Source: Giardia intestinalis (taxonomy: Eukaryota). Taken from it: DNA of 64,000 nucleotides. A program made the position numbers and the translations under genes. The notes below the pieces were generated by a model, which was given only the letters and a program-made list of their open reading frames with translations, ran no database searches and had not been told where the DNA came from. Positions 1 to 41,785 of this stretch are shown one piece after another. Location of the stretch: assembly GCA_000002435.2 (NCBI GenBank), contig CM018790.1; one strand, written 5' to 3'. How positions within the stretch are numbered: the first letter of the stretch is position 1; each line of letters begins with the position of its first letter.

Positions 1-1
1 T

Positions 2-1060
2 AAGATAAGACGCCCTGCTGAGCTGGAGCTTATATTCAGACGTGTAATACTTTCCTAAAGATGCACTAGTGTTGATAAGGAGCATGCCCAATCTGGCAAT
101 GCCAAAGTAGGGCCCAAGCGCCCCTAAAACAATCCCCAGAAACAGCTTCCAATTAAAAACAAAAGGGTCAGGCTTCTTATAGCAACAGGGATACTTGTAA
201 AAGACACCTAAATTGAGCTTAAGTACTCCCTTGAGAGGCATATCCAAGATGCTTTTGCGAAACATTATAAACAGCATCCAAACAGCTACCAGAGAGTGTG
301 CAGTGACAAAGCTCCATGCAGAGGCGTGTAAGATAAAGGTTCCTTCGGGATATACCATCTTGAAATAGAAGTAGTAAAGCTGGTCAAAGAGCACAAAGAG
401 GATGGAGAGGGCGAGAGAGCGCATGATGTTCAGAAAGCAGCGATTCTCCGCAGCAAGGAAATTTCCAAACCCGATGCTAAAAGGAGTTAAGAAGACGCCC
501 AGGCCGAACATTATCTTGTAATATGAACCAAATTCCGTTCCCCAGGTCAAGTCCACCCCTGAGAGTAATCGATGTCCTAACGGGACCATGATAGCGCAAA
601 TCAGGACGGCCCAGAACATAGATGCAAGAACGTAGTGGCTGAAAATCACATTGGCCATGATGACTTTGTTGGCAGCCAAGGCAGGACTCAGCATGTTAAC
701 TGCGACGCCTGCAAAGGCCTGGCACGGTACAATAACAAAGAGAAGGTCACTTCCATAGAGAATAGCCTGAGCACGGAGGCCTTCGAGTCCCGTATAAAAA
801 ATGGCTATATTGTAGTCTGAAAAGTAGGCAACAGCGTTCAGAAGATTGGTGATAAGGTACGGTATGGATGTCCCCCAAAGAAGTGAACTTATTGGCTGAG
901 TCCCAAGCCGCTCTATTGTGCTCTCGGTGGCAGACTTGACAGATCCCTCCTGCACAGTTTTACTACCACCTCCTGAGTCGTTCCGAGGATCAGCTGTACC
1001 AGGCGCCATAGGACCAGCCGAGCACTGGTCCTTCTGACCCGGTTGGCTTCTCTTAGACAT
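2..1060 (-). CDS. Polytopic membrane protein (transporter-like), N-terminal 353 codons. ATG at 1060 reads leftward and runs off the window start with no stop.
   Basis: Manual translation of the minus strand from ATG 1058-1060 gives an unbroken frame to position 2 (MSKRSQPGQKDQCSAGPMAPGTADP...). A hydrophilic N-terminus is followed by at least 9 hydrophobic segments (e.g. LITNLLNAVAYF, LLFVIVPCQAFAGVAVNMLSPALAA, FWAVLICAIMVPLG, MFGLGVFLTPFSIGFGNFLAA, LSILFVLFDQLYYFYF, WSFVTAHSLVAVWMLFIMF). An AT-rich stretch (ggattaaaaaaccgc) sits directly 5' of the ATG. Family not assignable by eye. Confidence 0.55.
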   Translation of the reverse strand, partial: MSKRSQPGQKDQCSAGPMAPGTADPRNDSGGGSKTVQEGSVKSATESTIERLGTQPISSLLWGTSIPYLITNLLNAVAYFSDYNIAIFYTGLEGLRAQAILYGSDLLFVIVPCQAFAGVAVNMLSPALAANKVIMANVIFSHYVLASMFWAVLICAIMVPLGHRLLSGVDLTWGTEFGSYYKIMFGLGVFLTPFSIGFGNFLAAENRCFLNIMRSLALSILFVLFDQLYYFYFKMVYPEGTFILHASAWSFVTAHSLVAVWMLFIMFRKSILDMPLKGVLKLNLGVFYKYPCCYKKPDPFVFNWKLFLGIVLGALGPYFGIARLGMLLINTSASLGKYYTSEYKLQLSRASYL

Positions 1061-1512
1061 GCGGTTTTTTAATCCTTTGTGGTGTTCGCTCTGTATCAGC
1101 TTGCAGCATCGTTCTGTTAGAATGTCTTCTTGTAGACACTGGTTAGACTGTTGAACACTTTGACAGTTGGTGGATAATAGCCAGAGGTATAACTCAGGAA
1201 GCACTGCATCGTTCTAAATTGTGGGGTGATGCATCTGTTGACAGAATAGTATAAAACAATCCGCTTTGCATCGACTTACTCTTGTTCCACTAGGGTTGGT
1301 TCGCCAACTTTTGCCCGAGTAAATCCCTCACGCAGGCGTCACGCTAAGAACTTCCTCGCTTGTTCACCATCCGAAGCCAGGGAATCGAGGTTCGGACGTC
1401 ATACCATTCTGATGACAAAAGAAGAACCTCATGCTTCCTCCTCCAAGATGAGTGTAGGTGCAACGGAGAGCTTGAAGCCAGTGATGGCACTAATTCCTCG
1501 CCACGCTGGGCC

Positions 1513-1769
1513 GACGCTGGCCAGGATAATCGCCCGCTTGTCGAGATGGACCCACACGTGACCTATGTGAATCCCTCGACGGGTGGGTCGGAGAGGCCCT
1601 TGAGGGAATGCTTGGTTCGGATAAAAGTGGGTAGCGCTTCTGCCTGCCCATAACTGGTTGGAGGAAGGAACCCTAGAGGCACCGCGAGGAGCGGCAGCTT
1701 CCAGGGGAGGCGGGCATAGGAGTTCTTCCGCCGGAATCGAGGGCATCCGATCTTCGGATTCTGGACTCT
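1513..1769. repeat. Element A, copy 1: a 257-bp GC-rich sequence with an identical inverted partner at 8196-8444.
   Basis: Direct alignment: 1513-1753 is the exact reverse complement of 8203-8444. A then carries a 7-bp insertion (cggattc) followed by 8 more matching bases. Both copies are open in the same frame (shared 80-aa peptide MPSIPAEELLCPPPLEAAAP...), which is expected for identical GC-rich DNA and is not taken as coding evidence. Confidence 0.8.
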
Positions 1770-2157
1770 GCCTGGGAGCAAGGGGCCTGCCCTCGCTTGC
1801 CTCAACTGCCATTAAACTCTGATCTTACCCAGTGTACCGAAGCAAAATAAGGATGTCTGAGCAATTCCCACAAGCCACCAAACGTCCTCAGAAGCAAACA
1901 AGCCACGGAAACACGTTTTCTCTATATGGTTGGTTCTGGTGGCGCACTACCTGGACTGCTCTCCTCGCATCGATGCAGCTCGTCAAGAGCGAACACGGAA
2001 TATCGGGTGCGCCGTCCCCGGCCATGACGGTGTCAACGGCACTGTGCAGAGCACGCTCGGGGGCAGGGGAGCGGCCACCCCTGCTCCCGGTTGCAGGCTG
2101 GCTGGCGAAGTATACGAGGCGCACCCGCTTGTCAGGCAGCTGCACCACTAGTGACGC

Positions 2158-2172
2158 GTTTACTATCTAAGT
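2158..2172 (-). terminator. VSP-type extended polyadenylation signal (ACTTAGATAGTAAAC on the minus strand), 3-17 nt past the stop codon.
   Basis: Matches the consensus ACTYAGRTAGTRAAY described 3' of Giardia vsp genes. It contains the general Giardia poly(A) signal AGTRAAY. Confidence 0.7.
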
Positions 2173-2174
2173 AC

Positions 2175-4085
2175 CTACGCCTTTCCTCTACAAATAAACC
2201 ACCAGCAGAGGAAGCCGACGAGGCCCCCTACAACAACAATCACAGCAACGGAGATGCCTGCAATGGCGCCAGTGGAGAGCCCGCTCTTGTTCGTGCTTCC
2301 ACCAGTGCCACTGCCACTGCTGTCATCGTTCTTGACATAGCAAGTAACAGAGCCGCCATTGCCACCAGTTGGAGGGGCACAGCTTATGCAGTTCTCTACA
2401 CCAGTGATTGCGTTGGCACTAGCTCCGTCGCCTGCTGTGCACCTAAAGCACTTATTAGTAGAAAGATAATATCCAGAAAGGCAGGAAGAACAGGTCTGAG
2501 AACCGACGTTACCAGTACACTTCAAACAACCATCAGGGCATGTAGGACAGGCTTGTCCTTTGGGATCTGCTCCACTTGCTACGCACATAGTACACTTTCC
2601 GCCTACGGATAACGTGCATACAGAGTTGCCGGGGACCTTATTTGTATTATAGCATCCGCCCGATAACAGAGCGTAGTTTGCCCCACACTCAGTGCATTTC
2701 CCGCCACTTGCCTTACATCCGGAGGCATCCCTCGCTGTGCTGGCCACCTTAGTGCAAACGCCGTCGACTGGGGCGTACCCATCCTCGCACTGATCGCAGT
2801 ACTTCGAGCCTCCGACGTTCAGTGAGCAGCCGTCGGCCTTGCAGTGGGCCATAAAGTCTCCCGTGCACTCTTTTATGCACGTTCCTGCGTCACCAGACGA
2901 CCGACTCAGCACATACCCCGGATAGCAGGCCGTGCACGACGTTTCTGCGTTAGTACTACAGCTTGCGCATGTATTGTGACAGGAAGCGCAAATGCCGGTA
3001 CTGTCACGATTATCGGGATATGTGCCGGCAGGGCACTCCTCCAGACATGCATCATTAAGGGGGCTCAGTCTTTTGGTCTCACACCCAGAGCACGTAACCA
3101 TTGGACCTGCTCTTGCAGACGTTGCCTTGAGAGAGCATTTTGCACAATCCTCTATGCCACCATTGGCAGTATCGCTGCACTTAGCACACACCTTCTTGCC
3201 TTGTGCATCGGCTGTGGGGAAGAATCCATCCTTACACTCCTCTGCACTGACACAAGAGGCTGTCCCCGATTCTGTCTTCAGATACTTATCTGCCTGGCAC
3301 TCAGTGCACGTTGCAGGGCCGGCACTCTGTGGCTTAGTACACTTGGCGCATCCAGCGACGCCCTTCCAAGCACCAGATCCCTGAGTAGCATCTCCGCACG
3401 ATATGCAAGGGCCCTCGCTCCCCTCTGTTGCTAAGAAGTACGTCTCTGCCGTGCACGACTTGCACTTGCTGACTGTCCCGTCGGTGCAGGTCAGGCAGTT
3501 ATCTGCACATGCTGTACATGTCTTTCCTTTACTATTATCTACAAAGTATCCGCTCTCGCATGCTGTGCACGTGGCAGCCTTGGCGTTAGCATCGGCTGCT
3601 ACGTCAGGCGTGTCACACTGAGTGCAATGCGGCACGCCCTTATACTTGTGGTTGTTTTTAGCTGGTACTTCCTCCTCACTTCCGCACGGTATAGCAGACT
3701 GATGTGCATTATCTCTATCAGCATCGGGTGGCAGGAAGTATCCTTGCGCGGCTTGTGTGCACACTCCAGCAGCTGCTTGTGTACACGCTGCATTGCCAGG
3801 TTTAGTATCCTTTGAATAGCATCCTCCTTTGTACATGAAGGAGCTTCCCGTACACGTGGTGCACTTTCCTTCTGCCTTTGCATTACACACAGCGTTGTCT
3901 GTTGTGCACTTGCCGTCCGTCGGGGCAGACTCCGACCCACTATCATTGCATTGCGAGCAGTAGCTCACTCCCCCAATGGTGGCCCCGCATGTCTTGCAGG
4001 TCTCGGGACCGCCACCGGAGACGGGTGTGCACTCCTCTGTCGCCAGTTGAAGCGTGAGGCCGATCAGCAAAAATGCGTAGAACAT
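2175..4085 (-). CDS. vsp: Variant-specific surface protein (VSP), copy L. 636 aa from the first ATG (MFYAFLLIGLTLQLA signal peptide) to the CRGKA tail.
   Basis: Signal peptide. About 11% Cys arranged as CXXC/CXC pairs throughout. GGCY motifs (KGGCYSKDT, SGGCYNTNK). A Gly/Ser-rich stalk. A single C-terminal TM helix (GAIAGISVAVIVVVGGLVGFLCWWFI) followed by the VSP-invariant CRGKA, then the stop. The track ORF 2175-4313 begins at a TTG 76 codons upstream; the first ATG is at 4083-4085. Confidence 0.9.
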   Translation of the reverse strand: MFYAFLLIGLTLQLATEECTPVSGGGPETCKTCGATIGGVSYCSQCNDSGSESAPTDGKCTTDNAVCNAKAEGKCTTCTGSSFMYKGGCYSKDTKPGNAACTQAAAGVCTQAAQGYFLPPDADRDNAHQSAIPCGSEEEVPAKNNHKYKGVPHCTQCDTPDVAADANAKAATCTACESGYFVDNSKGKTCTACADNCLTCTDGTVSKCKSCTAETYFLATEGSEGPCISCGDATQGSGAWKGVAGCAKCTKPQSAGPATCTECQADKYLKTESGTASCVSAEECKDGFFPTADAQGKKVCAKCSDTANGGIEDCAKCSLKATSARAGPMVTCSGCETKRLSPLNDACLEECPAGTYPDNRDSTGICASCHNTCASCSTNAETSCTACYPGYVLSRSSGDAGTCIKECTGDFMAHCKADGCSLNVGGSKYCDQCEDGYAPVDGVCTKVASTARDASGCKASGGKCTECGANYALLSGGCYNTNKVPGNSVCTLSVGGKCTMCVASGADPKGQACPTCPDGCLKCTGNVGSQTCSSCLSGYYLSTNKCFRCTAGDGASANAITGVENCISCAPPTGGNGGSVTCYVKNDDSSGSGTGGSTNKSGLSTGAIAGISVAVIVVVGGLVGFLCWWFICRGKA

Positions 4086-7000
4086 TGTGGCTCGACGCTC
4101 TGTCACACAGAGATATAGCAGCTCCGTTCGCCAGTCCGCCCCTTCATGGCATCTGTCTGTGCTGCATGACGCACTGGCAGGGAAGGCCCTCCACAGGCCT
4201 GCGGAGAAGTGGAGTCGTACCGATTCCACTCTTATGACCTGCCGCTCCGAGCTTCTGTGACTGGCCGGCTGTGAGATGGATTGATCAGTATAGGTCTCCC
4301 CCTTATGCTGCAAGGCGTACCATAGTAGTGGCTACACGGCGGCCATGCTTCGCTCTTCGCTGTGATGTGAGGGTTTCCTGGCGACCAACTCCCCTGCTGT
4401 GCCAGTCACAATGTCTGCCAAGGAACTGCCTAGGGATCTCCTGAATGCTTGAACAGACCCAATGGAGGCCGGGCCATGAGACGTCCAGCAGCCCCGAGCC
4501 ACGGGTCACCAGCGCATGCCTCGAACACTGTTCCCCCGAGATTCCACTGTTGAAGCCCGGCAGGAGCGATGCCCCGTGGAGGATGGCTGCGTTCTATCGC
4601 GACCCACTGCGACTGTCCCCCTGCTCAGGGGCGCCGTCTGTCATACGACTCAACCCGCTTGCACCATAGACTATTGATGAGCCTGTCCCCTGTCGACTCC
4701 CACGCACTGAAGGGCCCTACTGACCACTTTAGAGACCGTCCCTCGCCGGCCGCAGACCCATCTAGGAGCCAGTGCCTGTCCATCCCCATCTGGGATAGTC
4801 CCACTGGAGTGGACAGCCTTCGGGCACGCAATGGTGTCCCAGCACCCTCAGAGCGGTGGTCCCGCCCACTTGACCGGCTCCAGCCAACCATACCATAGCG
4901 TCTCTCACATAAGGAGTATCCCGCACACTGGAGAAAAGGCAACGTCGAGGCGGCCAGCGCTGTCGGGCCGCCCGCTCCCTGCTGGCAAAGAATAGCGGGA
5001 CCGTAAACAACCTGGGCTATCACTACTCGGCTCAGAGTGCTCAGCTCCTGGAATCGTGGCCGAGAGTGATCATTTGGGCAAGGCACGCAGCGTTGCTATC
5101 GGAGGCACTCTTGTGTTCGAGAGCCTTCCAATAAGACCGGTCCTGCCTGGTGCCAAAGAATGGGCTGTATGCTGGTCAACTGAACTGAAGATTGATGGTA
5201 GTGTTTATGGACAGCAAGCTAGGAAAGTCAGTGGCCTCTAGATTTCATGTCACATTGAGCAACCCACTATACGAAAGCTTGATATCTCAAATAATCAGCT
5301 GACGTTACGAAGTGCTTGGTAGTTTGATAACCATGTGGAGGTGAGACAGTGAGAGAGTCGTAAAGCAGCTTGCAGGCAGAGACGCTGAGGTGCGCAGCGA
5401 TCTGGTCTATCAAGTCTCTGTTGAGTGCACAAGGAATGCTCGAATGTAGTAAACTGGCCGGCCCTCTTTATAGCAGGCAAGGGCTTCTATCTGCACTGTA
5501 CAGTTATGGGATATACCCTTGCAGAATTAGTAAAAACACCCATATAAACAGCACTGAGTGCTTGGGATTTACGCCGGTGAGCAAGAGCTGATTGTGCCAC
5601 CTTGGTTGGCAAGTACTTCAAACTGTGCAACGCATACACCAATCCTTTGGTCAAAGTGAAGGCGACAGTCCTCATGGCACTATAAAATCAACCATGTGAA
5701 TCGTGGGAGCCTCATCTGGTGGCTCGTCTATTGCGGAAAGACGCAATTGAGGAACTGCTGGATAGCAAACATGCTGCCTGTTATCAGGTTACACAGTATA
5801 CCTCTACGACAGAGTCTTTATGCACACGTCGACAAATAGCCGAACACCTTTAAGATTCATAACAAGCAAACACTCAAGAAAGCCTGTGGTATTTCAAATG
5901 CACAAACTCAAAAATCAACCTCCAACCTATCTGTAGACACAATGCTTCAGAGTCGGAGGCCAAAAAGACACCGTGTGCGTCCTTGCTGCAATTCGGATCT
6001 GTAATTAGCATCTCTAGCGCTAGCCTTGCCCCACTAATCTGCTGGTCATTCCTACCTTCTCTGTGCGAACCAGCTCTCCAGGAACCACCGTGCACGGATA
6101 GCCTCCTGTACGCCCAAATAGCATCATTCTTTGTTGAGGTGTGTCACGAAGGGCTAGGTGTTATAAGGTGAGTGCGACTAGAGGCAAAGCCTTCCTGCAG
6201 GCCCGTCTAACACCAGCAATGGGCATCCAAACATGTGCACGGGCCCTTGGCGAGTGCACTGTAATCTAGGCCGGTCAGCACACTAGGCTTGTGACACTTG
6301 GTGCATAGATTTCTGTTTTTAGTTATAAGTCTGGGGATTGTGTCTTACCTTGAAAGGCAGTAGAGTGCTTTGCAGGGCCTTTCTGGGTATACAGCTATCG
6401 CTATAGCTAATGGATGAACAGCAATAAAGACTCTATGCTTAAACAGAGGCATTTCTGATGCAACCAAGTGCTGTCTTCCATCAATAGCAGACAGCTCAAA
6501 CAGGCGGTGTCCACTCTATCATCAGACCTTATGCGGCGTGTGTGCATTATTAGAGAAGCTTCTGTAATCTCTGCTCAGTCTGTTGGGCAGGTACAGCCCA
6601 AGTGTAACGAAGACGGTGGTGGAGGCAGTCACCGGCGCAAGGCAATGAGGCGTATGGCTCAGCACAACAATTCGTTTTTAGAAGCCCTAGGCCTCCAAGA
6701 CGAGCATAGCATACTGTCTGCACATGCAATTCCTCTTTCACGCTGCTTACTCCTATGAGCAGTTGCGATACATCGCATGCCAGAAAACGGCGTAGAGGGT
6801 TCCCAGACTATTGGACCAGTAGACCGAACTGACAAGGGTAGCTAGCCATGCATGCAGAAGCTCTGTCCTGGGGGCAGTGGGTGCGACGGCTGCCTCAAGT
6901 TTTTTAGTATCCAGACACAGGCTAATTACGTGTATATCGAGGGGTCGTTCTGGCTGATCTGGCTATGGCTGCACAGACGATGCAGAGCAATAACCCGGTC

Positions 7001-7609
7001 ACCACCTCAGTTCCCTGTCTGTTCTGAGCTCCAAGTCACGACCAACCAGCGAAGAATGATCTTCTTCGCCCTACATAGAGCTCTCCTAGACAGATATGCT
7101 CCCAGGTGTGGCTAGCCAACATTAGGGGCTACTCGTAGCCGGCGTTCCTCAATACTTGCCCAGTCTCACTTACATCTGCATTCACTTTGGACGCCAGAGG
7201 ATGCTGGGCTAAACATGTATTTACAAAGGGCACATATGATGACAGAAGGACGTAGTCATCTCCTGAACTTCCCTAACTTAGTTGGGCAACGTGCCCTTCA
7301 GAATGCACGATGGAGCTCACTGGTAGATGCATCGTCACAGCTTCGATGTCTTAGAATGCTTGATTGGCCGACAGTGATAACGCTCCTCTTCTGCCATATA
7401 ATCTGCCGCTTCCTGTCTAAGGGTATTGATCACTAACTATGTATAGCACTTTTCTTGGTTGCCATTATAGGTGTACCTCTTGATACTTGGGTTACCTGTT
7501 CTTCGCTGCACTGTTCTATTATCCCCTGCGGCAGGAGCTATATCGAAATCCTTGGTCGGCATATCTTGGGATCACCTCCCGCGCTCATATCGTCGTAGAG
7601 CACTGGTCC

Positions 7610-10600
7610 TCAGGTCGTCCCCAGCCATTGTGAGAGCCACACTATATGACCAAATGCGGGGCTTATTCCGCTCCGGATGCCTTGCCTGCCGGCGTGCCCT
7701 CTGGCTTGCCGACGCCTGTGGATGGAGACGCGTCGCTGCAGCCACACAGTTATTTACGCATCTTAGAAGCGCCCGTACTGGACAGCGTAGGGTTTTGCTT
7801 ATTTAGTACAGCTCCGTGATGCAGAAGACTCTAAAAGGAGGCCTGGGAACCCAGTCCAGTCCGGAGGGGAGGCATGCCGCGGAGTTATCCATTTCTCATT
7901 GAGGTCTAAAACGTCAGCGGACCACGGGAGGTCTCTCGCCACAGCAGCCGGCTGGCATTCTGTCACCTTATTACGGATATGAAGGCTGCCCACATGAGTC
8001 AACGCCGAAGCAAGACGTCTGGTCTGACAGAACTGCTGGGCAGAGCAGGTGGCAGAGCTGATATATTGAGAGATTTACTCTCCGTTTCACCGGGGCGGGG
8101 TTGCTACCTGCTATCTGAGTGGTCTCCCATGCGAGCCACCGCCTCCCTGGGCAAGCGGGTATCTCTCGCCCTTGCATCGGCTGAGATCCGAACCTAGAGT
8201 CCAAGATCGGATGCCCTCGATTCCGGCGGAAGAACTCCTATGCCCGCCTCCCCTGGAAGCTGCCGCTCCTCGCGGTGCCTCTAGGGTTCCTTCCTCCAAC
8301 CAGTTATGGGCAGGCAGAAGCGCTACCCACTTTTATCCGAACCAAGCATTCCCTCAAGGGCCTCTCCGACCCACCCGTCGAGGGATTCACATAGGTCACG
8401 TGTGGGTCCATCTCGACAAGCGGGCGATTATCCTGGCCAGCGTCAGCTTAGCATGATGAGAGGTTGGCGCCATCACCAGCTACATGCCTTCAGTCGCCTT
8501 CTCTATCGCCTTGAGAGAAGAAGCATCCTCCTTTGTCGTCAAAATGGGACAACATCCGAACCTCGATTCCCAGACTTCGGATGGTGAACAGGCGAAGGAG
8601 CGCCCAATATGGCACCTGCGTGAGGGATTTACTCGGATAGCAGCTACGGCGTCTGGCTGCTTGTTTCTCCTACAAGCCTAGTAATTGACCAGGGTTGCTT
8701 TACAGTCGTGGAGACACTGCTGCGTCTCTCTAAGTCTTTTAGAGAGACGATCCAGTTTAGTGTAGAAGGAATGAGCGCGACCCAGCCCGTGCCTACGTGT
8801 TGCTCTACGGTTTGCTGCTCCTGCTTGCTGTCTTCGTTTCCCTGAAAGCAGCCACGGTGGCTCTCTGGAGCAATCGCTTGCATCCATCCACAACCCTAGG
8901 CGTTACGACTTGGAAGGCCATGTCATCGCATAAGCTCTATGGAAGGCATTTACTAGCCATGGTAGATGGAGGTCGCTGCCTCTGAGGCCCTGATGCATGC
9001 TGAGCCTAAAAGACGCTGACTCCACTGGCTGCAGGAGCCGCCACTTACTGTGACAGCTTGAAGTAGCACCACTTCGAGGACAGAGGATATCCACAGCTCG
9101 AGAGGACGCGGCGGCAGAGAACAGACTCAGGCATAGCCACAAACAGACCCACCAATCCGGATGGATGAGGGCGGACACCTAATTGGCAAGCCGTTGGCTA
9201 GTCTATGTAGAGGCGCATCCTCTAACAGCAGGGTCTGGCACACGAAGTCTAAGGGCGACCATGGGTACACAGCAGACGGGCAGAAGCCTGCTTCGTAGTG
9301 TGTGGAGGCTTTGATGAGGCAATCCTAAGTTTAATGAAGGCCGGGACCGGTAGCTCTAACAGACAGTTCCCCAGCTTTGGAATACTTGCGTCACCATAGA
9401 GTCAATACAGTGAGTTGTCTGTAGTAACAAGTCTGTGGAGATAAGAGCAGACTCCTATCAAACTAACTAGATACTAATGGATCCTAGCGTGAACTCGCAG
9501 TATAGGGACTTGCAGAAGGCACCGCGTTCTACTCATCTGAGTAAGACAGCCAACTGAGTGAACCCATAATGCAAAGACCACGAGGCCAAGGGCTCCTCCA
9601 TAGCCTAAAAGCTAACATCACAAGAGTCACACTGGCCGCGGAGTGCTTTCCGATCCCCTGAGGCTTAGCGGCATGGCTTCGTTCCCTAGTACGGCCAGAC
9701 AGACTTGAGACACGAGATACTCTGTCTGCTGCAAAGCACACCTTCTGGCAGCGACTCAGGTCTATCGGGTAACTCTCGCATAGAGGAGGCAGATGGGTCC
9801 GAAGCGCCATCGCTCGCCTGATAACTCTGAGTCATGGAAGAGGAAGCTGTTTATGAGAATGCACCCCTAGTGTGTAGATCCGCGTTTTCATGCGAAGTGA
9901 GAAGACGCTCCTGGATTGATCTGTCATGCCTCCATCTGCTCTAGCAAAATGTAACGCAACGCATGCACTATTGATCTATGTCGCCATGACAGCCATAGTT
10001 AACTAGCCAACGAGACAATCGCTAGAGGAACCCTTGGACACTTATGAGCAGAGGCGCAGCCTGAGAGCAGTCATCTGGCCGCTAAGTGATGGAGGAGCAG
10101 ACACAGCGCTGCTCCGTGCAATCACACTCTCTCACTTTAGTGGCTATGTGGGCAGCCCCGGTCTTGTGAGGTCTGCGGATAAGCTGCTTCATCCCATAAA
10201 GCATCCAGAATTACTACAGGTGACCCCTGCAAAGTCTTACTGCGGGAGGTCATGCTTCACTAAAGACGTGGCTCTGGAAACACATTGACTGATGGGAGCT
10301 CCCCTCTGGCGTTCTTAGGGGCGGTGTCTGTCTACAATAGCTCCTACACCCACTGCCTGTCTATGGCCCAACTCTGCCGTATTAGACCCCTGTCTCCACT
10401 GAATGGCTGATTCGAGGGTGATGCTGGTTACCAGGATGATACCTTACATTGACTGCTAAGAGCTGTCTTTGCATATATTACGCTGCTTAGTGTTGCACTC
10501 AAACGAAGCTTGCTATTGCTCCGCAACTATTGTGGATTGGAAGAACAGTTAGCATTCTCAGTAGTTCATGTGGTAATTGGAAGCCAGGGAAGTCTAAGTT

Positions 10601-13001
10601 GAGTGGGAAAGCTTGAAGAGGGAGTAGCAGCTCTTGTACTCCTCTGCTGAGTGATGCAGAGAACTGGCTCGTTTCTTAGCGTCGATAGTTCTTCAGAATG
10701 CACGTTTCTTTGTTTAAGACTTGCATGCTTCGGATTGCCCTCTGTTGCCAGCAGAGCAGCCACCGCCCTGTGTGTCTCCTTCAGACATATGCCCATCTAT
10801 AGTGGCGTCTCCTGTCTTTTCTCTGGAGAGGCATAACAGTCCCAATCCAGACACCTTGCTCTCAGCACACACCTCGTATCTATCAGAGGTCAAGTGTTCG
10901 TCAGCCATATCCCATAAGCATCAGTACTGTGCCACTATGTTACTTCCTGTCCCTCTTGAGGGGCGCGCTCTGACCATCCCAGTGTCTCTATGATAGGAGA
11001 GCTGTGGATCCAGAGGCGGTCATGGCTTTCTGGCCCTCTCTGCTGTCCAGTAGACTGCAAGAGTGCCCTTCGGGGGTCGGTCCCCTAACCTTCTGTTCTC
11101 TCGAGGAAGTGGTCCTTGGATAGCGCCACTTGGATGATTCCCGAAGCCTCACTGCACGGGTGCTGCTTTACAAACACTCCTGGCTGAAGCTGGACCCGAA
11201 TCCTCCTAGAGTTACCTGCTGGCCCAGTCCTTGATTGCTATCAGCAGAGGTCTCAACCTTCCAAGGACATCTCGGGGACAATACGTTTGGCCCACGTCAG
11301 CGCCACTTCCTGGCAGGGGCATGCAGAAGATCTGCTCCCTCTTGTAGATCCATCATTGGTATCGAGAGTACTGCGCCTGTCACTCTCGCTGGAAGTGTCG
11401 ATAGATGGTGCCCCGTATCTATCCCATTGAAGAGTTGGAGGTCCGCCAGGACAGCGAAGATGATCCCATCAGGGCTGTGATCATATACCCGCCATTATAG
11501 CAACCATAGTGTAGATAAGACAACTGTCTGGGCCCTGCAACTCCCGGCGTAGGACGCCAGGAGGCATAGCTAATTCAAGCTAATAAAGGCCACCCCTGTC
11601 ATAGCAGGCTCAGAAAGTAGAGAATGAGTGACGTACCTGGTGTCCATCCACGCACGCATGCAGCCTGGAAGCCCTGCTCAAAGCACCGAGGCCTGCAGGG
11701 GTGTGGCATCCGAACAGGCCCGACAGTTATGGTTGTTTCTGAAAACAGCCAACATGACTGGATGAGGACATAAGAACTCACGGAGACCCTCACAGTCTTG
11801 ATGTCTGGGAGAACGTGGGGGCTGACCACTCCAAGATTGTCCATCTCATGAGCTGGCTTTCGACAGTAGGCATAACAAAAAAGTGACCTCCAGTCATACA
11901 CAATCTCATGCCAGCCCATCGCAGGATAGACCATCATTGCCTGACCTACCAATCCGTCCATTTCTGTGATAGATGTAACAGTACTTCATCATCGGCCACC
12001 TTGCGGCTACACAGTCAGGGTATTATCCGTGACATTGCTTGCTGATGCTCTGCATAGGGCCCTGTCCTCGTAGAGTGACAGATGAGCCTCTCTGTATATG
12101 TGGATCTAATGATATGGCTCCTCTGGGACTTTCCACCTCTGCTTCTGTCTAGTATCTCACATCAATATGAAGTGGCCAGTGGCTGTTATTGGATCTTGCA
12201 GCATAACTATTACACATTTGTGTGCCCATCAAGACTACCATATAGGGTCACACAAGCCGAGAGCTCTGTCAGGCAGTTATTGGACTCGATGTCAAGATGG
12301 CAGGAGGACAACACTCCCAAGGGTCGCTGAAGCATGAAGCGTTATATAGATCGTATAGCACACCAGCTGCAGCACAACGGCAGAGGGCATACCTAGATGT
12401 AGATAGCGCCTACAGCAAGCGGCATGCTGTCGTTGTCGGTACAACGGGCATAGTGGCTACTGGACCCACGCTTTAGTAGCCTCGATTGGAGCAATTGCAC
12501 AGCGAAGGAGCAGGGCGTAGGGGCATGGGCACCAACCGGTCGAGCAACGTGTACATGTACGAGCACAGTTATGAGTCTCGCCTACACTGTTGGGTGGTGC
12601 TCTGCTTTGATGCTGACTCAGCGGACCAACCCTCACATCTGTGACAGAAGGTAGGACATCGTGCTGATCATGCGGTGAGAGGCCTTCATGCGGGCCTTTA
12701 ACTAGCCTAGGCAGCACTTAGAAGCGGCCAACCCTCTCGTACCACGTCTCCTCTCTAAATAGGACTGAATGCATCCATGGTACCCTTCTAGGGTCTTAGT
12801 ATCATGGAGCCCGTGCCAGGCAGGAAGGTTCTATATTACATGGCATGCGAGCTGCTAGGATGTGTAAACACTTGCGTGGTTGTAGCGACGCGTCCTCATC
12901 AGCAAGTGTCAGAGTACATCGGTGGACAGGTGCATATTAAGTCAGGCACTCTGTGTGCGATCATGCATCACAGCTCTCGTAACGGGCCACAGGCAGCCTG
13001 G
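7610..13001. other. Unique 5.4-kb spacer between the inverted-repeat arms. No ORF longer than 120 aa in any frame.
   Basis: The six-frame track shows only short, unrecognisable ORFs with no mirror-image copies. It contains element A' (8196-8444). No recognisable RT, endonuclease, rRNA or telomeric (TAGGG)n signatures were seen by eye. Confidence 0.6.
8196..8444. repeat. Element A', the inverted copy of element A (1513-1769), lying 587 bp inside the spacer from the inner end of the left arm.
   Basis: Exact reverse complement of A apart from one 7-bp indel. With A it brackets a 6.9-kb segment (1513-8444) that holds VSP copy L and its whole arm. No corresponding copy flanks the right arm. Confidence 0.8.
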
Positions 13002-16000
13002 GGACCAGTGCTCTACGACGATATGAGCGCGGGAGGTGATCCCAAGATATGCCGACCAAGGATTTCGATATAGCTCCTGCCGCAGGGGATAATAGAACAG
13101 TGCAGCGAAGAACAGGTAACCCAAGTATCAAGAGGTACACCTATAATGGCAACCAAGAAAAGTGCTATACATAGTTAGTGATCAATACCCTTAGACAGGA
13201 AGCGGCAGATTATATGGCAGAAGAGGAGCGTTATCACTGTCGGCCAATCAAGCATTCTAAGACATCGAAGCTGTGACGATGCATCTACCAGTGAGCTCCA
13301 TCGTGCATTCTGAAGGGCACGTTGCCCAACTAAGTTAGGGAAGTTCAGGAGATGACTACGTCCTTCTGTCATCATATGTGCCCTTTGTAAATACATGTTT
13401 AGCCCAGCATCCTCTGGCGTCCAAAGTGAATGCAGATGTAAGTGAGACTGGGCAAGTATTGAGGAACGCCGGCTACGAGTAGCCCCTAATGTTGGCTAGC
13501 CACACCTGGGAGCATATCTGTCTAGGAGAGCTCTATGTAGGGCGAAGAAGATCATTCTTCGCTGGTTGGTCGTGACTTGGAGCTCAGAACAGACAGGGAA
13601 CTGAGGTGGTGACCGGGTTATTGCTCTGCATCGTCTGTGCAGCCATAGCCAGATCAGCCAGAACGACCCCTCGATATACACGTAATTAGCCTGTGTCTGG
13701 ATACTAAAAAACTTGAGGCAGCCGTCGCACCCACTGCCCCCAGGACAGAGCTTCTGCATGCATGGCTAGCTACCCTTGTCAGTTCGGTCTACTGGTCCAA
13801 TAGTCTGGGAACCCTCTACGCCGTTTTCTGGCATGCGATGTATCGCAACTGCTCATAGGAGTAAGCAGCGTGAAAGAGGAATTGCATGTGCAGACAGTAT
13901 GCTATGCTCGTCTTGGAGGCCTAGGGCTTCTAAAAACGAATTGTTGTGCTGAGCCATACGCCTCATTGCCTTGCGCCGGTGACTGCCTCCACCACCGTCT
14001 TCGTTACACTTGGGCTGTACCTGCCCAACAGACTGAGCAGAGATTACAGAAGCTTCTCTAATAATGCACACACGCCGCATAAGGTCTGATGATAGAGTGG
14101 ACACCGCCTGTTTGAGCTGTCTGCTATTGATGGAAGACAGCACTTGGTTGCATCAGAAATGCCTCTGTTTAAGCATAGAGTCTTTATTGCTGTTCATCCA
14201 TTAGCTATAGCGATAGCTGTATACCCAGAAAGGCCCTGCAAAGCACTCTACTGCCTTTCAAGGTAAGACACAATCCCCAGACTTATAACTAAAAACAGAA
14301 ATCTATGCACCAAGTGTCACAAGCCTAGTGTGCTGACCGGCCTAGATTACAGTGCACTCGCCAAGGGCCCGTGCACATGTTTGGATGCCCATTGCTGGTG
14401 TTAGACGGGCCTGCAGGAAGGCTTTGCCTCTAGTCGCACTCACCTTATAACACCTAGCCCTTCGTGACACACCTCAACAAAGAATGATGCTATTTGGGCG
14501 TACAGGAGGCTATCCGTGCACGGTGGTTCCTGGAGAGCTGGTTCGCACAGAGAAGGTAGGAATGACCAGCAGATTAGTGGGGCAAGGCTAGCGCTAGAGA
14601 TGCTAATTACAGATCCGAATTGCAGCAAGGACGCACACGGTGTCTTTTTGGCCTCCGACTCTGAAGCATTGTGTCTACAGATAGGTTGGAGGTTGATTTT
14701 TGAGTTTGTGCATTTGAAATACCACAGGCTTTCTTGAGTGTTTGCTTGTTATGAATCTTAAAGGTGTTCGGCTATTTGTCGACGTGTGCATAAAGACTCT
14801 GTCGTAGAGGTATACTGTGTAACCTGATAACAGGCAGCATGTTTGCTATCCAGCAGTTCCTCAATTGCGTCTTTCCGCAATAGACGAGCCACCAGATGAG
14901 GCTCCCACGATTCACATGGTTGATTTTATAGTGCCATGAGGACTGTCGCCTTCACTTTGACCAAAGGATTGGTGTATGCGTTGCACAGTTTGAAGTACTT
15001 GCCAACCAAGGTGGCACAATCAGCTCTTGCTCACCGGCGTAAATCCCAAGCACTCAGTGCTGTTTATATGGGTGTTTTTACTAATTCTGCAAGGGTATAT
15101 CCCATAACTGTACAGTGCAGATAGAAGCCCTTGCCTGCTATAAAGAGGGCCGGCCAGTTTACTACATTCGAGCATTCCTTGTGCACTCAACAGAGACTTG
15201 ATAGACCAGATCGCTGCGCACCTCAGCGTCTCTGCCTGCAAGCTGCTTTACGACTCTCTCACTGTCTCACCTCCACATGGTTATCAAACTACCAAGCACT
15301 TCGTAACGTCAGCTGATTATTTGAGATATCAAGCTTTCGTATAGTGGGTTGCTCAATGTGACATGAAATCTAGAGGCCACTGACTTTCCTAGCTTGCTGT
15401 CCATAAACACTACCATCAATCTTCAGTTCAGTTGACCAGCATACAGCCCATTCTTTGGCACCAGGCAGGACCGGTCTTATTGGAAGGCTCTCGAACACAA
15501 GAGTGCCTCCGATAGCAACGCTGCGTGCCTTGCCCAAATGATCACTCTCGGCCACGATTCCAGGAGCTGAGCACTCTGAGCCGAGTAGTGATAGCCCAGG
15601 TTGTTTACGGTCCCGCTATTCTTTGCCAGCAGGGAGCGGGCGGCCCGACAGCGCTGGCCGCCTCGACGTTGCCTTTTCTCCAGTGTGCGGGATACTCCTT
15701 ATGTGAGAGACGCTATGGTATGGTTGGCTGGAGCCGGTCAAGTGGGCGGGACCACCGCTCTGAGGGTGCTGGGACACCATTGCGTGCCCGAAGGCTGTCC
15801 ACTCCAGTGGGACTATCCCAGATGGGGATGGACAGGCACTGGCTCCTAGATGGGTCTGCGGCCGGCGAGGGACGGTCTCTAAAGTGGTCAGTAGGGCCCT
15901 TCAGTGCGTGGGAGTCGACAGGGGACAGGCTCATCAATAGTCTATGGTGCAAGCGGGTTGAGTCGTATGACAGACGGCGCCCCTGAGCAGGGGGACAGTC

Positions 16001-16525
16001 GCAGTGGGTCGCGATAGAACGCAGCCATCCTCCACGGGGCATCGCTCCTGCCGGGCTTCAACAGTGGAATCTCGGGGGAACAGTGTTCGAGGCATGCGCT
16101 GGTGACCCGTGGCTCGGGGCTGCTGGACGTCTCATGGCCCGGCCTCCATTGGGTCTGTTCAAGCATTCAGGAGATCCCTAGGCAGTTCCTTGGCAGACAT
16201 TGTGACTGGCACAGCAGGGGAGTTGGTCGCCAGGAAACCCTCACATCACAGCGAAGAGCGAAGCATGGCCGCCGTGTAGCCACTACTATGGTACGCCTTG
16301 CAGCATAAGGGGGAGACCTATACTGATCAATCCATCTCACAGCCGGCCAGTCACAGAAGCTCGGAGCGGCAGGTCATAAGAGTGGAATCGGTACGACTCC
16401 ACTTCTCCGCAGGCCTGTGGAGGGCCTTCCCTGCCAGTGCGTCATGCAGCACAGACAGATGCCATGAAGGGGCGGACTGGCGAACGGAGCTGCTATATCT
16501 CTGTGTGACAGAGCGTCGAGCCACA

Positions 16526-18436
16526 ATGTTCTACGCATTTTTGCTGATCGGCCTCACGCTTCAACTGGCGACAGAGGAGTGCACACCCGTCTCCGGTGGC
16601 GGTCCCGAGACCTGCAAGACATGCGGGGCCACCATTGGGGGAGTGAGCTACTGCTCGCAATGCAATGATAGTGGGTCGGAGTCTGCCCCGACGGACGGCA
16701 AGTGCACAACAGACAACGCTGTGTGTAATGCAAAGGCAGAAGGAAAGTGCACCACGTGTACGGGAAGCTCCTTCATGTACAAAGGAGGATGCTATTCAAA
16801 GGATACTAAACCTGGCAATGCAGCGTGTACACAAGCAGCTGCTGGAGTGTGCACACAAGCCGCGCAAGGATACTTCCTGCCACCCGATGCTGATAGAGAT
16901 AATGCACATCAGTCTGCTATACCGTGCGGAAGTGAGGAGGAAGTACCAGCTAAAAACAACCACAAGTATAAGGGCGTGCCGCATTGCACTCAGTGTGACA
17001 CGCCTGACGTAGCAGCCGATGCTAACGCCAAGGCTGCCACGTGCACAGCATGCGAGAGCGGATACTTTGTAGATAATAGTAAAGGAAAGACATGTACAGC
17101 ATGTGCAGATAACTGCCTGACCTGCACCGACGGGACAGTCAGCAAGTGCAAGTCGTGCACGGCAGAGACGTACTTCTTAGCAACAGAGGGGAGCGAGGGC
17201 CCTTGCATATCGTGCGGAGATGCTACTCAGGGATCTGGTGCTTGGAAGGGCGTCGCTGGATGCGCCAAGTGTACTAAGCCACAGAGTGCCGGCCCTGCAA
17301 CGTGCACTGAGTGCCAGGCAGATAAGTATCTGAAGACAGAATCGGGGACAGCCTCTTGTGTCAGTGCAGAGGAGTGTAAGGATGGATTCTTCCCCACAGC
17401 CGATGCACAAGGCAAGAAGGTGTGTGCTAAGTGCAGCGATACTGCCAATGGTGGCATAGAGGATTGTGCAAAATGCTCTCTCAAGGCAACGTCTGCAAGA
17501 GCAGGTCCAATGGTTACGTGCTCTGGGTGTGAGACCAAAAGACTGAGCCCCCTTAATGATGCATGTCTGGAGGAGTGCCCTGCCGGCACATATCCCGATA
17601 ATCGTGACAGTACCGGCATTTGCGCTTCCTGTCACAATACATGCGCAAGCTGTAGTACTAACGCAGAAACGTCGTGCACGGCCTGCTATCCGGGGTATGT
17701 GCTGAGTCGGTCGTCTGGTGACGCAGGAACGTGCATAAAAGAGTGCACGGGAGACTTTATGGCCCACTGCAAGGCCGACGGCTGCTCACTGAACGTCGGA
17801 GGCTCGAAGTACTGCGATCAGTGCGAGGATGGGTACGCCCCAGTCGACGGCGTTTGCACTAAGGTGGCCAGCACAGCGAGGGATGCCTCCGGATGTAAGG
17901 CAAGTGGCGGGAAATGCACTGAGTGTGGGGCAAACTACGCTCTGTTATCGGGCGGATGCTATAATACAAATAAGGTCCCCGGCAACTCTGTATGCACGTT
18001 ATCCGTAGGCGGAAAGTGTACTATGTGCGTAGCAAGTGGAGCAGATCCCAAAGGACAAGCCTGTCCTACATGCCCTGATGGTTGTTTGAAGTGTACTGGT
18101 AACGTCGGTTCTCAGACCTGTTCTTCCTGCCTTTCTGGATATTATCTTTCTACTAATAAGTGCTTTAGGTGCACAGCAGGCGACGGAGCTAGTGCCAACG
18201 CAATCACTGGTGTAGAGAACTGCATAAGCTGTGCCCCTCCAACTGGTGGCAATGGCGGCTCTGTTACTTGCTATGTCAAGAACGATGACAGCAGTGGCAG
18301 TGGCACTGGTGGAAGCACGAACAAGAGCGGGCTCTCCACTGGCGCCATTGCAGGCATCTCCGTTGCTGTGATTGTTGTTGTAGGGGGCCTCGTCGGCTTC
18401 CTCTGCTGGTGGTTTATTTGTAGAGGAAAGGCGTAG
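16526..18436 (+). CDS. vsp: Variant-specific surface protein (VSP), copy R. Identical 636-aa product to copy L.
   Basis: ATG at 16526 (ccacaATGttctacgcattt). Ends ...FICRGKA, then TAG at 18434-18436. Protein identical to copy L. Confidence 0.9.
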   Translation: MFYAFLLIGLTLQLATEECTPVSGGGPETCKTCGATIGGVSYCSQCNDSGSESAPTDGKCTTDNAVCNAKAEGKCTTCTGSSFMYKGGCYSKDTKPGNAACTQAAAGVCTQAAQGYFLPPDADRDNAHQSAIPCGSEEEVPAKNNHKYKGVPHCTQCDTPDVAADANAKAATCTACESGYFVDNSKGKTCTACADNCLTCTDGTVSKCKSCTAETYFLATEGSEGPCISCGDATQGSGAWKGVAGCAKCTKPQSAGPATCTECQADKYLKTESGTASCVSAEECKDGFFPTADAQGKKVCAKCSDTANGGIEDCAKCSLKATSARAGPMVTCSGCETKRLSPLNDACLEECPAGTYPDNRDSTGICASCHNTCASCSTNAETSCTACYPGYVLSRSSGDAGTCIKECTGDFMAHCKADGCSLNVGGSKYCDQCEDGYAPVDGVCTKVASTARDASGCKASGGKCTECGANYALLSGGCYNTNKVPGNSVCTLSVGGKCTMCVASGADPKGQACPTCPDGCLKCTGNVGSQTCSSCLSGYYLSTNKCFRCTAGDGASANAITGVENCISCAPPTGGNGGSVTCYVKNDDSSGSGTGGSTNKSGLSTGAIAGISVAVIVVVGGLVGFLCWWFICRGKA

Positions 18437-18438
18437 GT

Positions 18439-18453
18439 ACTTAGATAGTAAAC
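18439..18453 (+). terminator. VSP extended polyadenylation signal ACTTAGATAGTAAAC.
   Basis: Begins 3 nt after the stop codon and contains AGTAAAC (AGTRAAY). Confidence 0.7.
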
Positions 18454-19031
18454 GCGTCACTAGTGGTGCAGCTGCCTGACAAGCGGGTGCGCCTCGTATA
18501 CTTCGCCAGCCAGCCTGCAACCGGGAGCAGGGGTGGCCGCTCCCCTGCCCCCGAGCGTGCTCTGCACAGTGCCGTTGACACCGTCATGGCCGGGGACGGC
18601 GCACCCGATATTCCGTGTTCGCTCTTGACGAGCTGCATCGATGCGAGGAGGGGTGCTTGATGTGGGCAGCTTTGGTACTGTCCATGTGATAGGTGGCTAT
18701 CCAAGACTCAGAGTGGGAAGCTCACGGAGGCCACTGGGTCGCGCTGGCCACCATTTCCAGACGCTCACACCTAGATGTCATTAGGCACTACCGGGTGCTC
18801 AGAGACGCTCACTCCATCTTCATCATCATGGACCGCTGAGATCGGTGCCTCAAGATGTGATTGCCGATTGAGCAAGAACCGGTAACCCTACCGATACAGT
18901 GCTCTCCATCATGGAGCAGTGAGTGTCTACAATTATATATTGACCACTACTGTGATAGCGCGGAGCTTCCGGGGTCAACCACAAGTAAAGGGTAAGCTTT
19001 CTTAATGGAATTGCCACTCACAAGACAGAGA

Positions 19032-41655: not shown

Positions 41656-41687
41656 CGTAGAATGGAAGAGCAAAAGATCAATTTTTA

Positions 41688-41722
41688 CTCTTGACTCCTG
41701 GCTCTTGACTCTTGACTCTTGA
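41688..41722. repeat. Imperfect heptanucleotide tandem repeat (CTCTTGA), 5 units.
   Basis: ctcttga ctcctgg ctcttga ctcttga ctcttga, read directly from the sequence. It sits in the 5' flank of the WD40 gene. Confidence 0.8.
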
Positions 41723-41732
41723 GATCAAACCG

Positions 41733-41774
41733 GGCCAAGGCCAAGGCCGAGGTCAAGGCCAAGGCCAAGGCCAA
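41733..41774. repeat. Hexanucleotide microsatellite (GGCCAA), 7 units.
   Basis: ggccaa ggccaa ggccga ggtcaa ggccaa ggccaa ggccaa. It ends 12 nt from the UBC9 stop codon, so it lies in the UBC9 3' UTR as (UUGGCC)n. Confidence 0.8.
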
Positions 41775-41785
41775 AATCTATCCAC

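What the first reader, a model, noticed from the sequence alone, without database searches (positions are those of the whole stretch)
4086..16525. A 12.4-kb tract without a credible protein-coding gene in an otherwise gene-dense genome
Between the two VSP start codons there is no ORF over 153 aa in any frame and nothing with a recognisable protein motif. The rest of the window has genes every 1-4 kb with intergenic spacers of 15-100 bp. The tract is 2 x 3.5 kb of duplicated VSP-upstream sequence plus the 5.4-kb unique spacer. It has GC-rich sub-blocks (e.g. 4300-5100, mirrored at 15500-16300) whose composition differs from coding DNA. Candidates are a degenerate non-LTR retroelement remnant (GilD-like), a long non-coding or structured RNA locus, or sequence held for VSP regulation or recombination.
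Basis: seen in the sequence. Interest (0 to 1): 0.6.

Follow-up and report, generated by a model that had tools for sequence, protein, structure and literature searches.

The report
Gene-free interior of inverted VSP pair
The 12.4-kb gene-free stretch is the non-coding inside of a large, almost perfect inverted duplication of a Giardia surface-antigen (VSP) gene; the 2020 reference-genome paper already tabulates this pair, and nothing in the stretch looks like a gene, a dead retroelement or a structured RNA.

Summary
The window is Giardia intestinalis WB chromosome 2. Positions 4086-16525 (12,440 nt) lie between the start codons of two identical, divergent 636-aa VSP genes. The longest ORF is 153 aa.

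The tract is the interior of an inverted repeat. The arms are 1961-7614 and 12997-18650 (5,654 nt, one mismatch). The spacer is 5,382 nt.

Every coding test was negative: codon usage, period-3 signal, ORF lengths against a random model, and a six-frame Pfam scan. No reverse-transcriptase or VSP remnant was found. There were no Rfam or tRNA hits and no excess RNA structure.

The pair is already published. Xu et al. 2020, Table 2, lists 50359/134710, "<- ->", 636 aa, distance 12440 bp, nothing between. It is the largest of 19 such pairs.

Three small additions come from this work:
- The inverted symmetry continues about 400 nt into the spacer at about 64% identity.
- A second inverted repeat (1315-1762 / 8196-8636) has a 240-nt identical core.
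- The WB arms are identical, while the copy at the same left junction in isolate DH differs by about 5%.

Together these suggest an older inverted duplication kept uniform by gene conversion. Function is untested. Interest is low.

The parts
1961..7614 (.). Left arm of the inverted repeat (5,654 nt). It holds the left VSP copy, 214 nt of its 3' flank and 3,529 nt of its 5' flank.
   Evidence: the repeat finder I1. BLAST gives 99.97% identity. The only mismatch is at 7610.
12997..18650 (.). Right arm of the inverted repeat, the reverse complement of the left arm.
2175..4085 (-). Left VSP copy, 636 aa. Inferred to be GL50803_0050359.
   Evidence: Pfam VSP E=5.6e-83. The protein is identical to KAE8302464.1/KAE8302465.1. 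It matches vsp167 of Adam 2010: 636 aa, 72 Cys, 25 CXXC, 63.9 kDa. Which locus tag belongs to which copy is inferred from the order of accessions and from Table 2.
16526..18436 (+). Right VSP copy, 636 aa. Inferred to be GL50803_00134710. It sits at the position shared with assemblage E (P15).
   Evidence: The Inr CAATGTT and the 3' motif ACTTAGAT AGTAAAC were read directly from the sequence. P15 has a VSP 3' end convergent with the ortholog of the 571-aa gene.
4086..7614 (.). Duplicated non-coding VSP 5' flank, left copy (3,529 nt). It includes the GC-rich block at about 4086-5100.
   Evidence: Codon-usage score about 0. Period-3 power 0.3-1.5. No Pfam hit in six frames. Independent short-read assemblies cover 4563-6056 at 100% (L018) and 4344-5746 at 98.7% (L017).
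12997..16525 (.). Duplicated non-coding VSP 5' flank, right copy.
   Evidence: It mirrors 4086-7614. L011 covers 15991-16525 at 96-99%.
7615..12996 (.). Spacer between the arms (5,382 nt). It is non-coding and has no detectable homolog.
7711..8012 (.). Decayed continuation of the inverted repeat into the spacer, left side. It pairs with 12603-12910.
   Evidence: Local alignment gives 64% identity over 296 positions. The score is 42, against 14.3 +/- 1.0 (maximum 16) in 30 shuffles. The alignment is collinear with the arm ends.
12603..12910 (.). Decayed continuation of the inverted repeat into the spacer, right side.
8196..8636 (.). X', an inverted copy of 1315-1762. The partner X lies just outside the left arm.
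   Evidence: 86% identity overall. A core of about 240 nt (1513-1754) is 100% identical and the remainder is about 70%.
1315..1762 (.). X, the partner of X'. It lies between the left flanking gene and the left arm.
   Evidence: It is present at the same place in isolate DH (L012).

Best explanation
The tract is plain non-coding DNA. It forms the interior of a large palindrome-like inverted duplication of a VSP gene on Giardia WB chromosome 2.

Proposed history, all inferred. A VSP that sits tail-to-tail with gene GL50803_00112059 was copied, with several kb of its upstream DNA, in inverted orientation. Since then the two copies have repeatedly exchanged sequence by gene conversion between the arms. 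That would keep 5.65 kb identical while the innermost part of the old duplication decayed to about 64% identity, and the central 4.6 kb now shows no symmetry.

No protein, retroelement remnant or structured RNA is detectably encoded there. The stretch is long because DNA around VSP genes in this genome is gene-poor and not conserved in synteny, unlike the compact housekeeping regions.

Its likely effects are structural. It offers long perfect homology for conversion or inversion. If transcribed across both arms it could form double-stranded RNA. Neither effect has been shown.
For: Shown:
- Arms of 5,654 nt differ at one base, with a 5,382-nt spacer.
- Both VSP copies are complete and identical, with Inr, CRGKA and the VSP poly(A) motif.
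- The pair and the 12,440-bp distance with nothing between are published. Nineteen such pairs are listed, and VSP surroundings are described as gene-poor.
- Codon-usage score averages -0.003 in the tract against 0.204 in the window's genes.
- Period-3 power is 0.89 in the tract, 3.97 in genes and 8-10 in the VSP.
- The ORF-length distribution equals a Markov null.
- There are no Pfam domains in any frame at E<=1.
- tblastn and tblastx with the window's own proteins and with VSP-flank loci of P15, assemblage B and DH found nothing in the tract.
- There are no Rfam, tRNA or tandem-repeat hits.
- Fold z-scores average -0.05 +/- 1.10 against -0.08 +/- 1.14 in coding DNA.
- Decayed inverted homology continues beyond the perfect arms.
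- The X/X' repeat has a 100%-identical core inside diverged flanks of about 70% identity, the pattern of a conversion tract.
- The left junction at 1961 is the same in isolate DH. There the flank is about 98% identical to WB but the arm only about 95%, while the WB arms are identical to each other.
- The right copy is at the position shared with P15.
- The sequence is real. A second run assembles 4563-6056 at 100% and another isolate has 4344-5746 at 98.7%. The first WB assembly already had a partial second copy, XP_001708597.1, 137 aa.
Against: - No transcript or small-RNA data could be consulted, so a functional non-coding transcript is not excluded.
- The interior of the tract could not be retrieved from any other isolate beyond 1.97 kb upstream of the VSP. 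Its conservation and age are therefore unknown.
- The concerted-evolution argument rests on about 0.8 kb of DH sequence. The second DH copy used for comparison (L010) belongs to a paralogous locus on another chromosome.
- A very recent re-duplication would explain the identical arms equally well.
- The two chimeric protein searches missed an 88-aa ORF call that one search found. They are weak negatives for short ORFs.
- Direct DNA comparison with GilM/GilT/GilD was not possible.
Confidence: 0.75

Rival explanations
1. The inverted repeat is a hairpin-RNA or endogenous siRNA source, or another regulatory non-coding transcript unit. Transcription through the spacer into both arms would give a perfect double-stranded RNA of up to 5.6 kb that includes the whole VSP. 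Giardia Dicer would process it, and the products would feed VSP silencing.
For: The geometry fits: perfect 5.65-kb complementary arms with a loop-like spacer. Literature read here states that RNAi components, bidirectional VSP transcription and VSP-related small RNAs exist in Giardia.
Against: No promoter, transcript or small-RNA evidence could be examined. The two VSP genes point away from the centre, so their own transcripts do not cross the spacer. Eighteen other pairs have the same geometry with much shorter interiors, so the extra length is not explained. Local structure is not enriched and there are no Rfam hits.
Confidence: 0.1
2. The tract is a heavily decayed non-LTR retrotransposon (GilD-like) or other mobile-element remnant, as found between four of the other six divergent VSP pairs.
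For: Xu et al. 2020 report psiRT between four of seven divergent VSP pairs. The length of 3-6 kb per unit is in the right range.
Against: No RVT, endonuclease or any other Pfam domain in six frames at E<=1. No period-3 or codon signal anywhere. The published table lists pseudogenes but shows none for this pair. There are no terminal or tandem repeats.
Confidence: 0.05
3. The perfect inverted duplication, or its 12.4-kb interior, is an assembly artefact of the long-read assembly.
For: The arms are essentially identical. Inverted VSP pairs are known to break or confuse assemblies. Raw reads could not be inspected.
Against: The older Sanger assembly already held one full copy and one partial copy of this VSP. 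Isolate DH has the left-flank junction at the same base. An independent short-read assembly reproduces 1.5 kb of the arm interior at 100%. The arms have a unique 5.4-kb spacer and decayed extensions, which chimeric palindromic reads do not produce. The published assembly was checked against optical maps.
Confidence: 0.04
4. The tract holds one or more short or fast-evolving lineage-specific protein genes that ordinary tests miss.
For: ORFs of 100-153 aa exist. Gene callers on short Logan contigs did-132-aa ORFs at 4628-5095. There is a slight excess of stop-free stretches of at least 50 aa: 93 against 79.9 +/- 6.4.
Against: These ORFs lie in the 62%-GC block, where long ORFs arise by chance on both strands. 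Codon score and period-3 power there are at background. Outside Giardia the 156-aa stretch's only match was one low-complexity tandem-repeat protein at E=8e-7. The curated reannotation, which used RNA-seq and homology, kept none of them.
Confidence: 0.04

Closest known systems
Identical inverted VSP gene pairs of Giardia WB (Adam et al. 2010, PMC2996952; Xu et al. 2020, PMC7000408, Table 2)
   Same: Both have two identical complete VSP ORFs in inverted orientation and flanks identical up to a point of abrupt divergence. The intervening DNA is mostly non-coding. This very pair (50359/134710, 636 aa, 12440 bp) is a row of Xu's Table 2.
   Different: It is the size outlier. It spans 12,440 bp between ORFs, against 2,513-6,264 bp for the other 18 pairs. 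Identity reaches 3,529 nt upstream, against 158-729 nt for the head-to-head pairs measured in 2010. The 2010 study did not recognise it as a pair: vsp167 has no pair flag. Unlike four of the other six divergent pairs, it has no RT remnant.
Large palindromes kept uniform by arm-to-arm gene conversion (for example the human Y-chromosome palindromes; from general knowledge, not tested here)
   Same: Both have near-identical inverted arms around a unique spacer. Arm identity here (1 difference in 5,654 nt) is at the level of allelic variation (0.01-0.03%). There are signs that the arms evolve in concert.
   Different: The scale is a thousand-fold smaller. The cargo is a single antigen gene plus non-coding DNA. 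Conversion is inferred here from limited comparative data, not demonstrated.
Hairpin-RNA (hpRNA) endogenous siRNA loci of animals and plants (from general knowledge)
   Same: Both have long perfect inverted repeats with a loop-sized spacer, which could yield Dicer substrates.
   Different: There is no evidence of transcription across the repeat or of small RNAs. The resident genes are transcribed outward.

Membership tests
Giardia identical inverted VSP pair | Two VSP ORFs with identical coding sequence | tested here: met
   The 636-aa ORFs at 2175-4085 (-) and 16526-18436 (+) lie inside the arms, whose only mismatch (7610) is outside the ORFs. Both accessions KAE8302464.1 and KAE8302465.1 carry this sequence.
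Giardia identical inverted VSP pair | Bona fide VSP hallmarks: Pfam VSP domain, C-terminal CRGKA, Inr at the ATG and the extended poly(A) signal | tested here: met
   Pfam PF03302 E=5.6e-83. CRGKA is present. CAATGTT at the start codon and ACTTAGAT AGTAAAC after the stop were read directly.
Giardia identical inverted VSP pair | Inverted (head-to-head or tail-to-tail) orientation, with flanks identical up to an abrupt divergence point | tested here: met
   The pair is head-to-head. Identity ends at 1961/18650 (214 nt past the stop) and at 7614/12997 (3,529 nt above the start). A weak 64% continuation follows on the inner side only.
Giardia identical inverted VSP pair | About 2-4 kb of intervening non-coding DNA (2010 description) | tested here: not met
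   The intervening DNA is 12,440 nt. It is non-coding, but 3-5 times longer than the range given in 2010. The 2020 table nevertheless lists it as a pair, so size is descriptive rather than defining.
Non-LTR retrotransposon remnant (GilM/GilT/GilD) | Recognisable reverse-transcriptase or endonuclease coding remnant | tested here: not met
   Six-frame translation of 4086-12996 against Pfam-A at E<=1 found 0 families in all frames.
Non-LTR retrotransposon remnant (GilM/GilT/GilD) | Nucleotide similarity to the Giardia Gil elements or to the psiRT segments between other VSP pairs | not testable with these tools
   No Gil element sequence or WB chromosome sequence outside the window could be fetched.
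Known structured RNA family (Rfam) | Covariance-model match | tested here: not met
   cmscan of 1-22000 on both strands at E<=1 gave no match. ARAGORN found no tRNA. A sliding fold z-score scan matched the coding control.
Hairpin-RNA / endo-siRNA locus | Long inverted repeat able to form double-stranded RNA | tested here: met
   5,654-nt arms with one mismatch.
Hairpin-RNA / endo-siRNA locus | A transcript spanning both arms, and Dicer-sized small RNAs mapping to them | not testable with these tools
Palindrome maintained by arm-to-arm gene conversion | Arms more alike within a lineage than orthologous arms are between lineages, with the same junctions | tested here: inconclusive
   The WB arms are identical. 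The DH left-junction copy is about 95% identical to WB in the arm and about 98% in the adjacent flank, with the junction at the same base. Only 0.8 kb could be compared, and the second DH copy comes from a paralogous locus.

The most novel reading that the evidence does not exclude
The outlier size is functional. The 12.4-kb interior with its nested inverted repeats would act as a recombination or transcription device for this VSP. The perfect arms and the X/X' pair, with its 240-nt identical core flanking the left copy, could allow flip-flop inversion of the 6.4-kb X-X' segment. Alternatively the locus could be transcribed into a long hairpin that seeds siRNAs against VSPs of this clade. Either would make it a cis-acting element in antigenic variation rather than junk.
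Probability: 0.07. Interest if true: 0.7.

Novelty: already known. Interest (0 to 1): 0.18.

Why it matters
As it stands this is a bookkeeping result. A suspicious gene desert in a compact genome is the published, largest member of the inverted VSP pair class, and it is truly non-coding.

It matters modestly for two reasons. First, it shows that the retroelement remnants seen between several other divergent pairs are not a necessary part of such pairs. Second, the identical arms next to decayed inner edges, together with the conversion-like core in X/X', give a concrete locus for measuring gene conversion and inversion between inverted repeats in an organism whose sexual cycle and homogenisation mechanisms are unresolved.

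If small-RNA data later showed the palindrome to be a hairpin source, it would bear directly on how one VSP among many is selected for expression.

Tried and rejected
- Pseudogene of a neighbouring family (VSP, NEK/ankyrin, others). tblastn of all 17 large window ORFs against the tract gave only E>0.08 noise. tblastx with VSP-flank loci of P15, assemblage B and DH gave only 21-24-bit passengers in the tract.
- An old head-to-head VSP copy between X and X'. This was rejected because no VSP similarity exists at 5873-7783, although X/X' are 86% alike.
- X core as a non-coding RNA. Fold z-scores are -1.1 and -0.8, there is no Rfam hit, and it is not unusually conserved in DH.
- Foreign origin. The spacer had no match in the phage collection and the arm's upstream block none in the plasmid collection.
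These returned nothing, but they missed P0032, an 88-aa Logan ORF% identical to 4628-4891(-) that the exhaustive HMMER search found. I treat them as weak.
- P0033, the only other hit of that search (E=8e-7). It is a low-complexity fourfold tandem-repeat protein from a JGI metagenome and matches one 35-residue stretch repeatedly. I judge it spurious.
- Exact look-ups of the window's own VSP and 571-aa protein. These returned no contig, so the WB chromosome outside the window was unavailable.
- Two metagenome scans with 25-mers from the spacer and the X core. Both were empty.
- Literature searches for this locus tag. These gave only a list of predicted miR2 targets.
Full report
**Identity of the window.** The 571-aa ORF at 19032-20747 (-) is 100% identical to KAE8302466.1, GL50803_00112059 of Giardia intestinalis WB. 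The next gene is the NEK kinase KAE8302467.1. The 636-aa ORFs at 2175-4085 (-) and 16526-18436 (+) are VSPs. They match Pfam PF03302 at E=5.6e-83, end in CRGKA, carry the Inr CAATGTT at the ATG, and have ACTTAGAT AGTAAAC after the stop. Their sequence is carried by two consecutive accessions, KAE8302464.1 and KAE8302465.1, on a 1.54-Mb chromosome.

**The observation.** The coordinates 4086-16525 are exactly the 12,440 nt between the two start codons. The longest ORF is 153 aa. The tract is the interior of an inverted repeat with arms 1961-7614 and 12997-18650. The arms are 5,654 nt long with a single mismatch at 7610. The spacer is 5,382 nt, so 2 x 3,529 + 5,382 = 12,440. GC is 56-65% from the VSP start to about 5100 and drops to 41-53% beyond. 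The remainder of the window is gene-dense. All factual parts of the finding are confirmed.

**Is anything encoded? Protein-level tests.**
- A codon-usage log-likelihood score trained on the window's own genes averages -0.003 across the tract (maximum 0.116). In the genes it averages 0.204.
- Period-3 spectral power is 0.89 in the tract, which is noise level. It is 3.97 in genes and 8-10 in the VSP.
- The longest stop-free stretch (156 aa) and the number of stretches of at least 100 aa (9) match first-order Markov simulations (155.9 +/- 26.5 and 8.1 +/- 2.5). Stretches of at least 50 aa are slightly in excess (93 against 79.9 +/- 6.4).
- All six reading frames of 4086-12996, with stops masked, gave no Pfam-A family at E<=1. 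That means no reverse transcriptase, endonuclease, VSP, kinase or ankyrin.
- tblastn with the window's 17 large ORFs found nothing in the tract. Neither did tblastx with the VSP-flank DNA of P15, assemblage B and DH.
- An exhaustive HMMER search of the 156-aa stretch against 1.84 billion representatives found two proteins. One is an 88-aa ORF call from a Logan assembly of the same DNA. The other is a low-complexity repeat protein that I regard as spurious.

**Is anything encoded? RNA-level tests.**
- Rfam at E<=1, ARAGORN and Tandem Repeats Finder found nothing in the tract (Rfam and TRF over 1-22000, ARAGORN over the whole window).
- A 150-nt sliding fold scan on both strands gave z = -0.05 +/- 1.10 (minimum -3.0). 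A coding control gave -0.08 +/- 1.14 (minimum -4.3).
- The spacer has no similarity in the phage collection, nor the arm's upstream block in the plasmid collection.

**What is already published.** Adam et al. 2010 described 14 identical inverted vsp pairs in WB, separated by 2-4 kb of non-coding DNA. Identity ended abruptly 158-729 nt above the start codon in the head-to-head pairs. Our VSP matches their vsp167 (GL50803_134710, chromosome 2, 636 aa, 72 Cys, 25 CXXC, 63.9 kDa), which carries no pair flag. The second copy was then only a 137-aa fragment, XP_001708597.1.

Xu et al. 2020 re-assembled WB and list 19 pairs in Table 2. One row reads "2 / 50359 / 134710 / <- -> / 636 / 12440" with the 'Genes between' column empty. 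The other pairs span 2,513-6,264 bp. Four of the seven divergent pairs contain a psiRT and one contains a NEK. The authors also note that regions around VSPs are gene-poor and that the mean intergenic length is 477 bp. So the tract, its exact length and its emptiness are on record. It is the extreme member of a known class.

(a) The inverted symmetry does not stop at the perfect arms.** Positions 7711-8012 align with the reverse complement of 12603-12910 at 64% identity. The local score is 42, against 14.3 +/- 1.0 in shuffles. The alignment is collinear with the arm ends. Nothing comparable exists outside the outer ends. A jump from 100% to about 64% fits two histories: an old inverted duplication whose outer 5.65 kb has been homogenised, or one that was re-copied recently.

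**(b) A second inverted repeat.** X (1315-1762) lies just outside the left arm. X' (8196-8636) lies in the spacer. Together they bracket the left VSP copy. They are 86% identical overall, made of a core of about 240 nt at 100% and a remainder at about 70%. This again looks like a conversion tract. The core shows no special RNA fold and no special conservation in isolate DH.

**(c) Comparative data.**
- In P15 and assemblage B, synteny runs up to the ortholog of the 571-aa gene. It then enters VSPs and contig ends.
- P15 has a VSP 3' end convergent with that gene, so the right copy sits at the shared position.
- In isolate DH (AII), contig L012 carries the left flank, X and the VSP 3' end, with the junction at the same base as in WB. 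The flank is about 98% identical to WB and the arm about 95%.
- The DH copy next to the paralogous 473-aa gene (L010) is 97.8% identical to L012 in the arm.
- The WB arms are identical while the orthologous junction copy has diverged about 5%. This points to concerted evolution, but the evidence is thin.

**(d) The arm interior is real and present elsewhere.** Logan contig L018 equals 4563-6056 at 100%. L017 equals 4344-5746 at 98.7% without indels. L011 covers the first 535 nt upstream at 96-99%.

**Explanation and its limits.** The best-supported reading is that the tract is the inert, non-coding interior of a VSP palindrome. An inverted segmental duplication would have produced it, and arm-to-arm gene conversion would keep it uniform.
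- Shown: the structure, the non-coding character, the decayed edges, the shared left junction in DH, and the ancestral position of the right copy.
- Inferred: the order of events, conversion as the homogenising process, and the absence of function.
- Not tested: transcription, small RNAs, DNA similarity to Gil elements, conservation of the spacer in other isolates, and read-level support.

The two chimeric protein searches are weak negatives, because they failed to report an 88-aa ORF call that is in the collection.

**Verdict.** Novelty: already known as an annotated feature, with minor new anatomical detail. Interest is low, with a small chance that the palindrome is a hairpin-RNA source or an inversion device relevant to antigenic variation.

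Noticed in passing
window 1315-1762 and 8196-8636: A second inverted repeat (X/X') brackets the left VSP copy and its upstream DNA. It is 86% identical overall, made of a 240-nt core (1513-1754) at 100% and a remainder at about 70%. The pattern suggests a gene-conversion tract, and the pair could in principle mediate inversion of the 6.4-kb segment between the copies.
   Followed up: partly
window 7711-8012 and 12603-12910: The 'unique' spacer is not wholly unique. Its outer 400 nt on each side are a decayed (64%) continuation of the inverted repeat. The truly asymmetric core is therefore about 4.6 kb.
   Followed up: yes
window 18890-20474; loci L004-L010: The 3' two-thirds of the 571-aa gene and its downstream DNA are duplicated on another chromosome. 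The paralog is the 473-aa GL50803_00111806, next to a myotubularin-related gene. Identity is 98.9% in WB-like assemblies. In isolate DH the paralogous copy continues into a VSP 3' end at 96%. The VSP unit is thus part of a wider segmental duplication between chromosomes.
   Followed up: partly
window 18646-18941; L001 12619-13735: P15 (assemblage E) has a 301-aa kinase gene between the ortholog of the 571-aa gene and the VSP. WB lacks that gene. It keeps only about 300 nt homologous to the DNA next to it (72% identity at DNA level).
   Followed up: no
window 2091-2612 (+) and 17999-18520 (-): A 173-aa ORF lies antisense to the VSP 3' half. It scores higher on the housekeeping-gene codon model (0.19-0.23) than the VSP sense frame (0.10-0.16). 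This is probably an artefact of VSP composition, because VSPs were left out of the training set.
   Followed up: no
window 1-1200 (-): A membrane-protein gene runs off the left end of the window. Its DH ortholog is 807 aa in L012. So the left side of the palindrome is also bounded by an ordinary conserved gene, with X lying about 115 nt upstream of its start.
   Followed up: partly
window 41674-43067: This is the only other sizeable stretch (1.4 kb) in the gene-dense part of the window without an ORF of at least 200 aa.
   Followed up: no
(tool behaviour): the search for homologous proteins with long chimeric queries returned no hit, although an 88-aa protein 99% identical to part of the query (P0032) is a cluster representative in the same collection. 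Negatives from that tool for short ORFs should not be relied on.
   Followed up: partly
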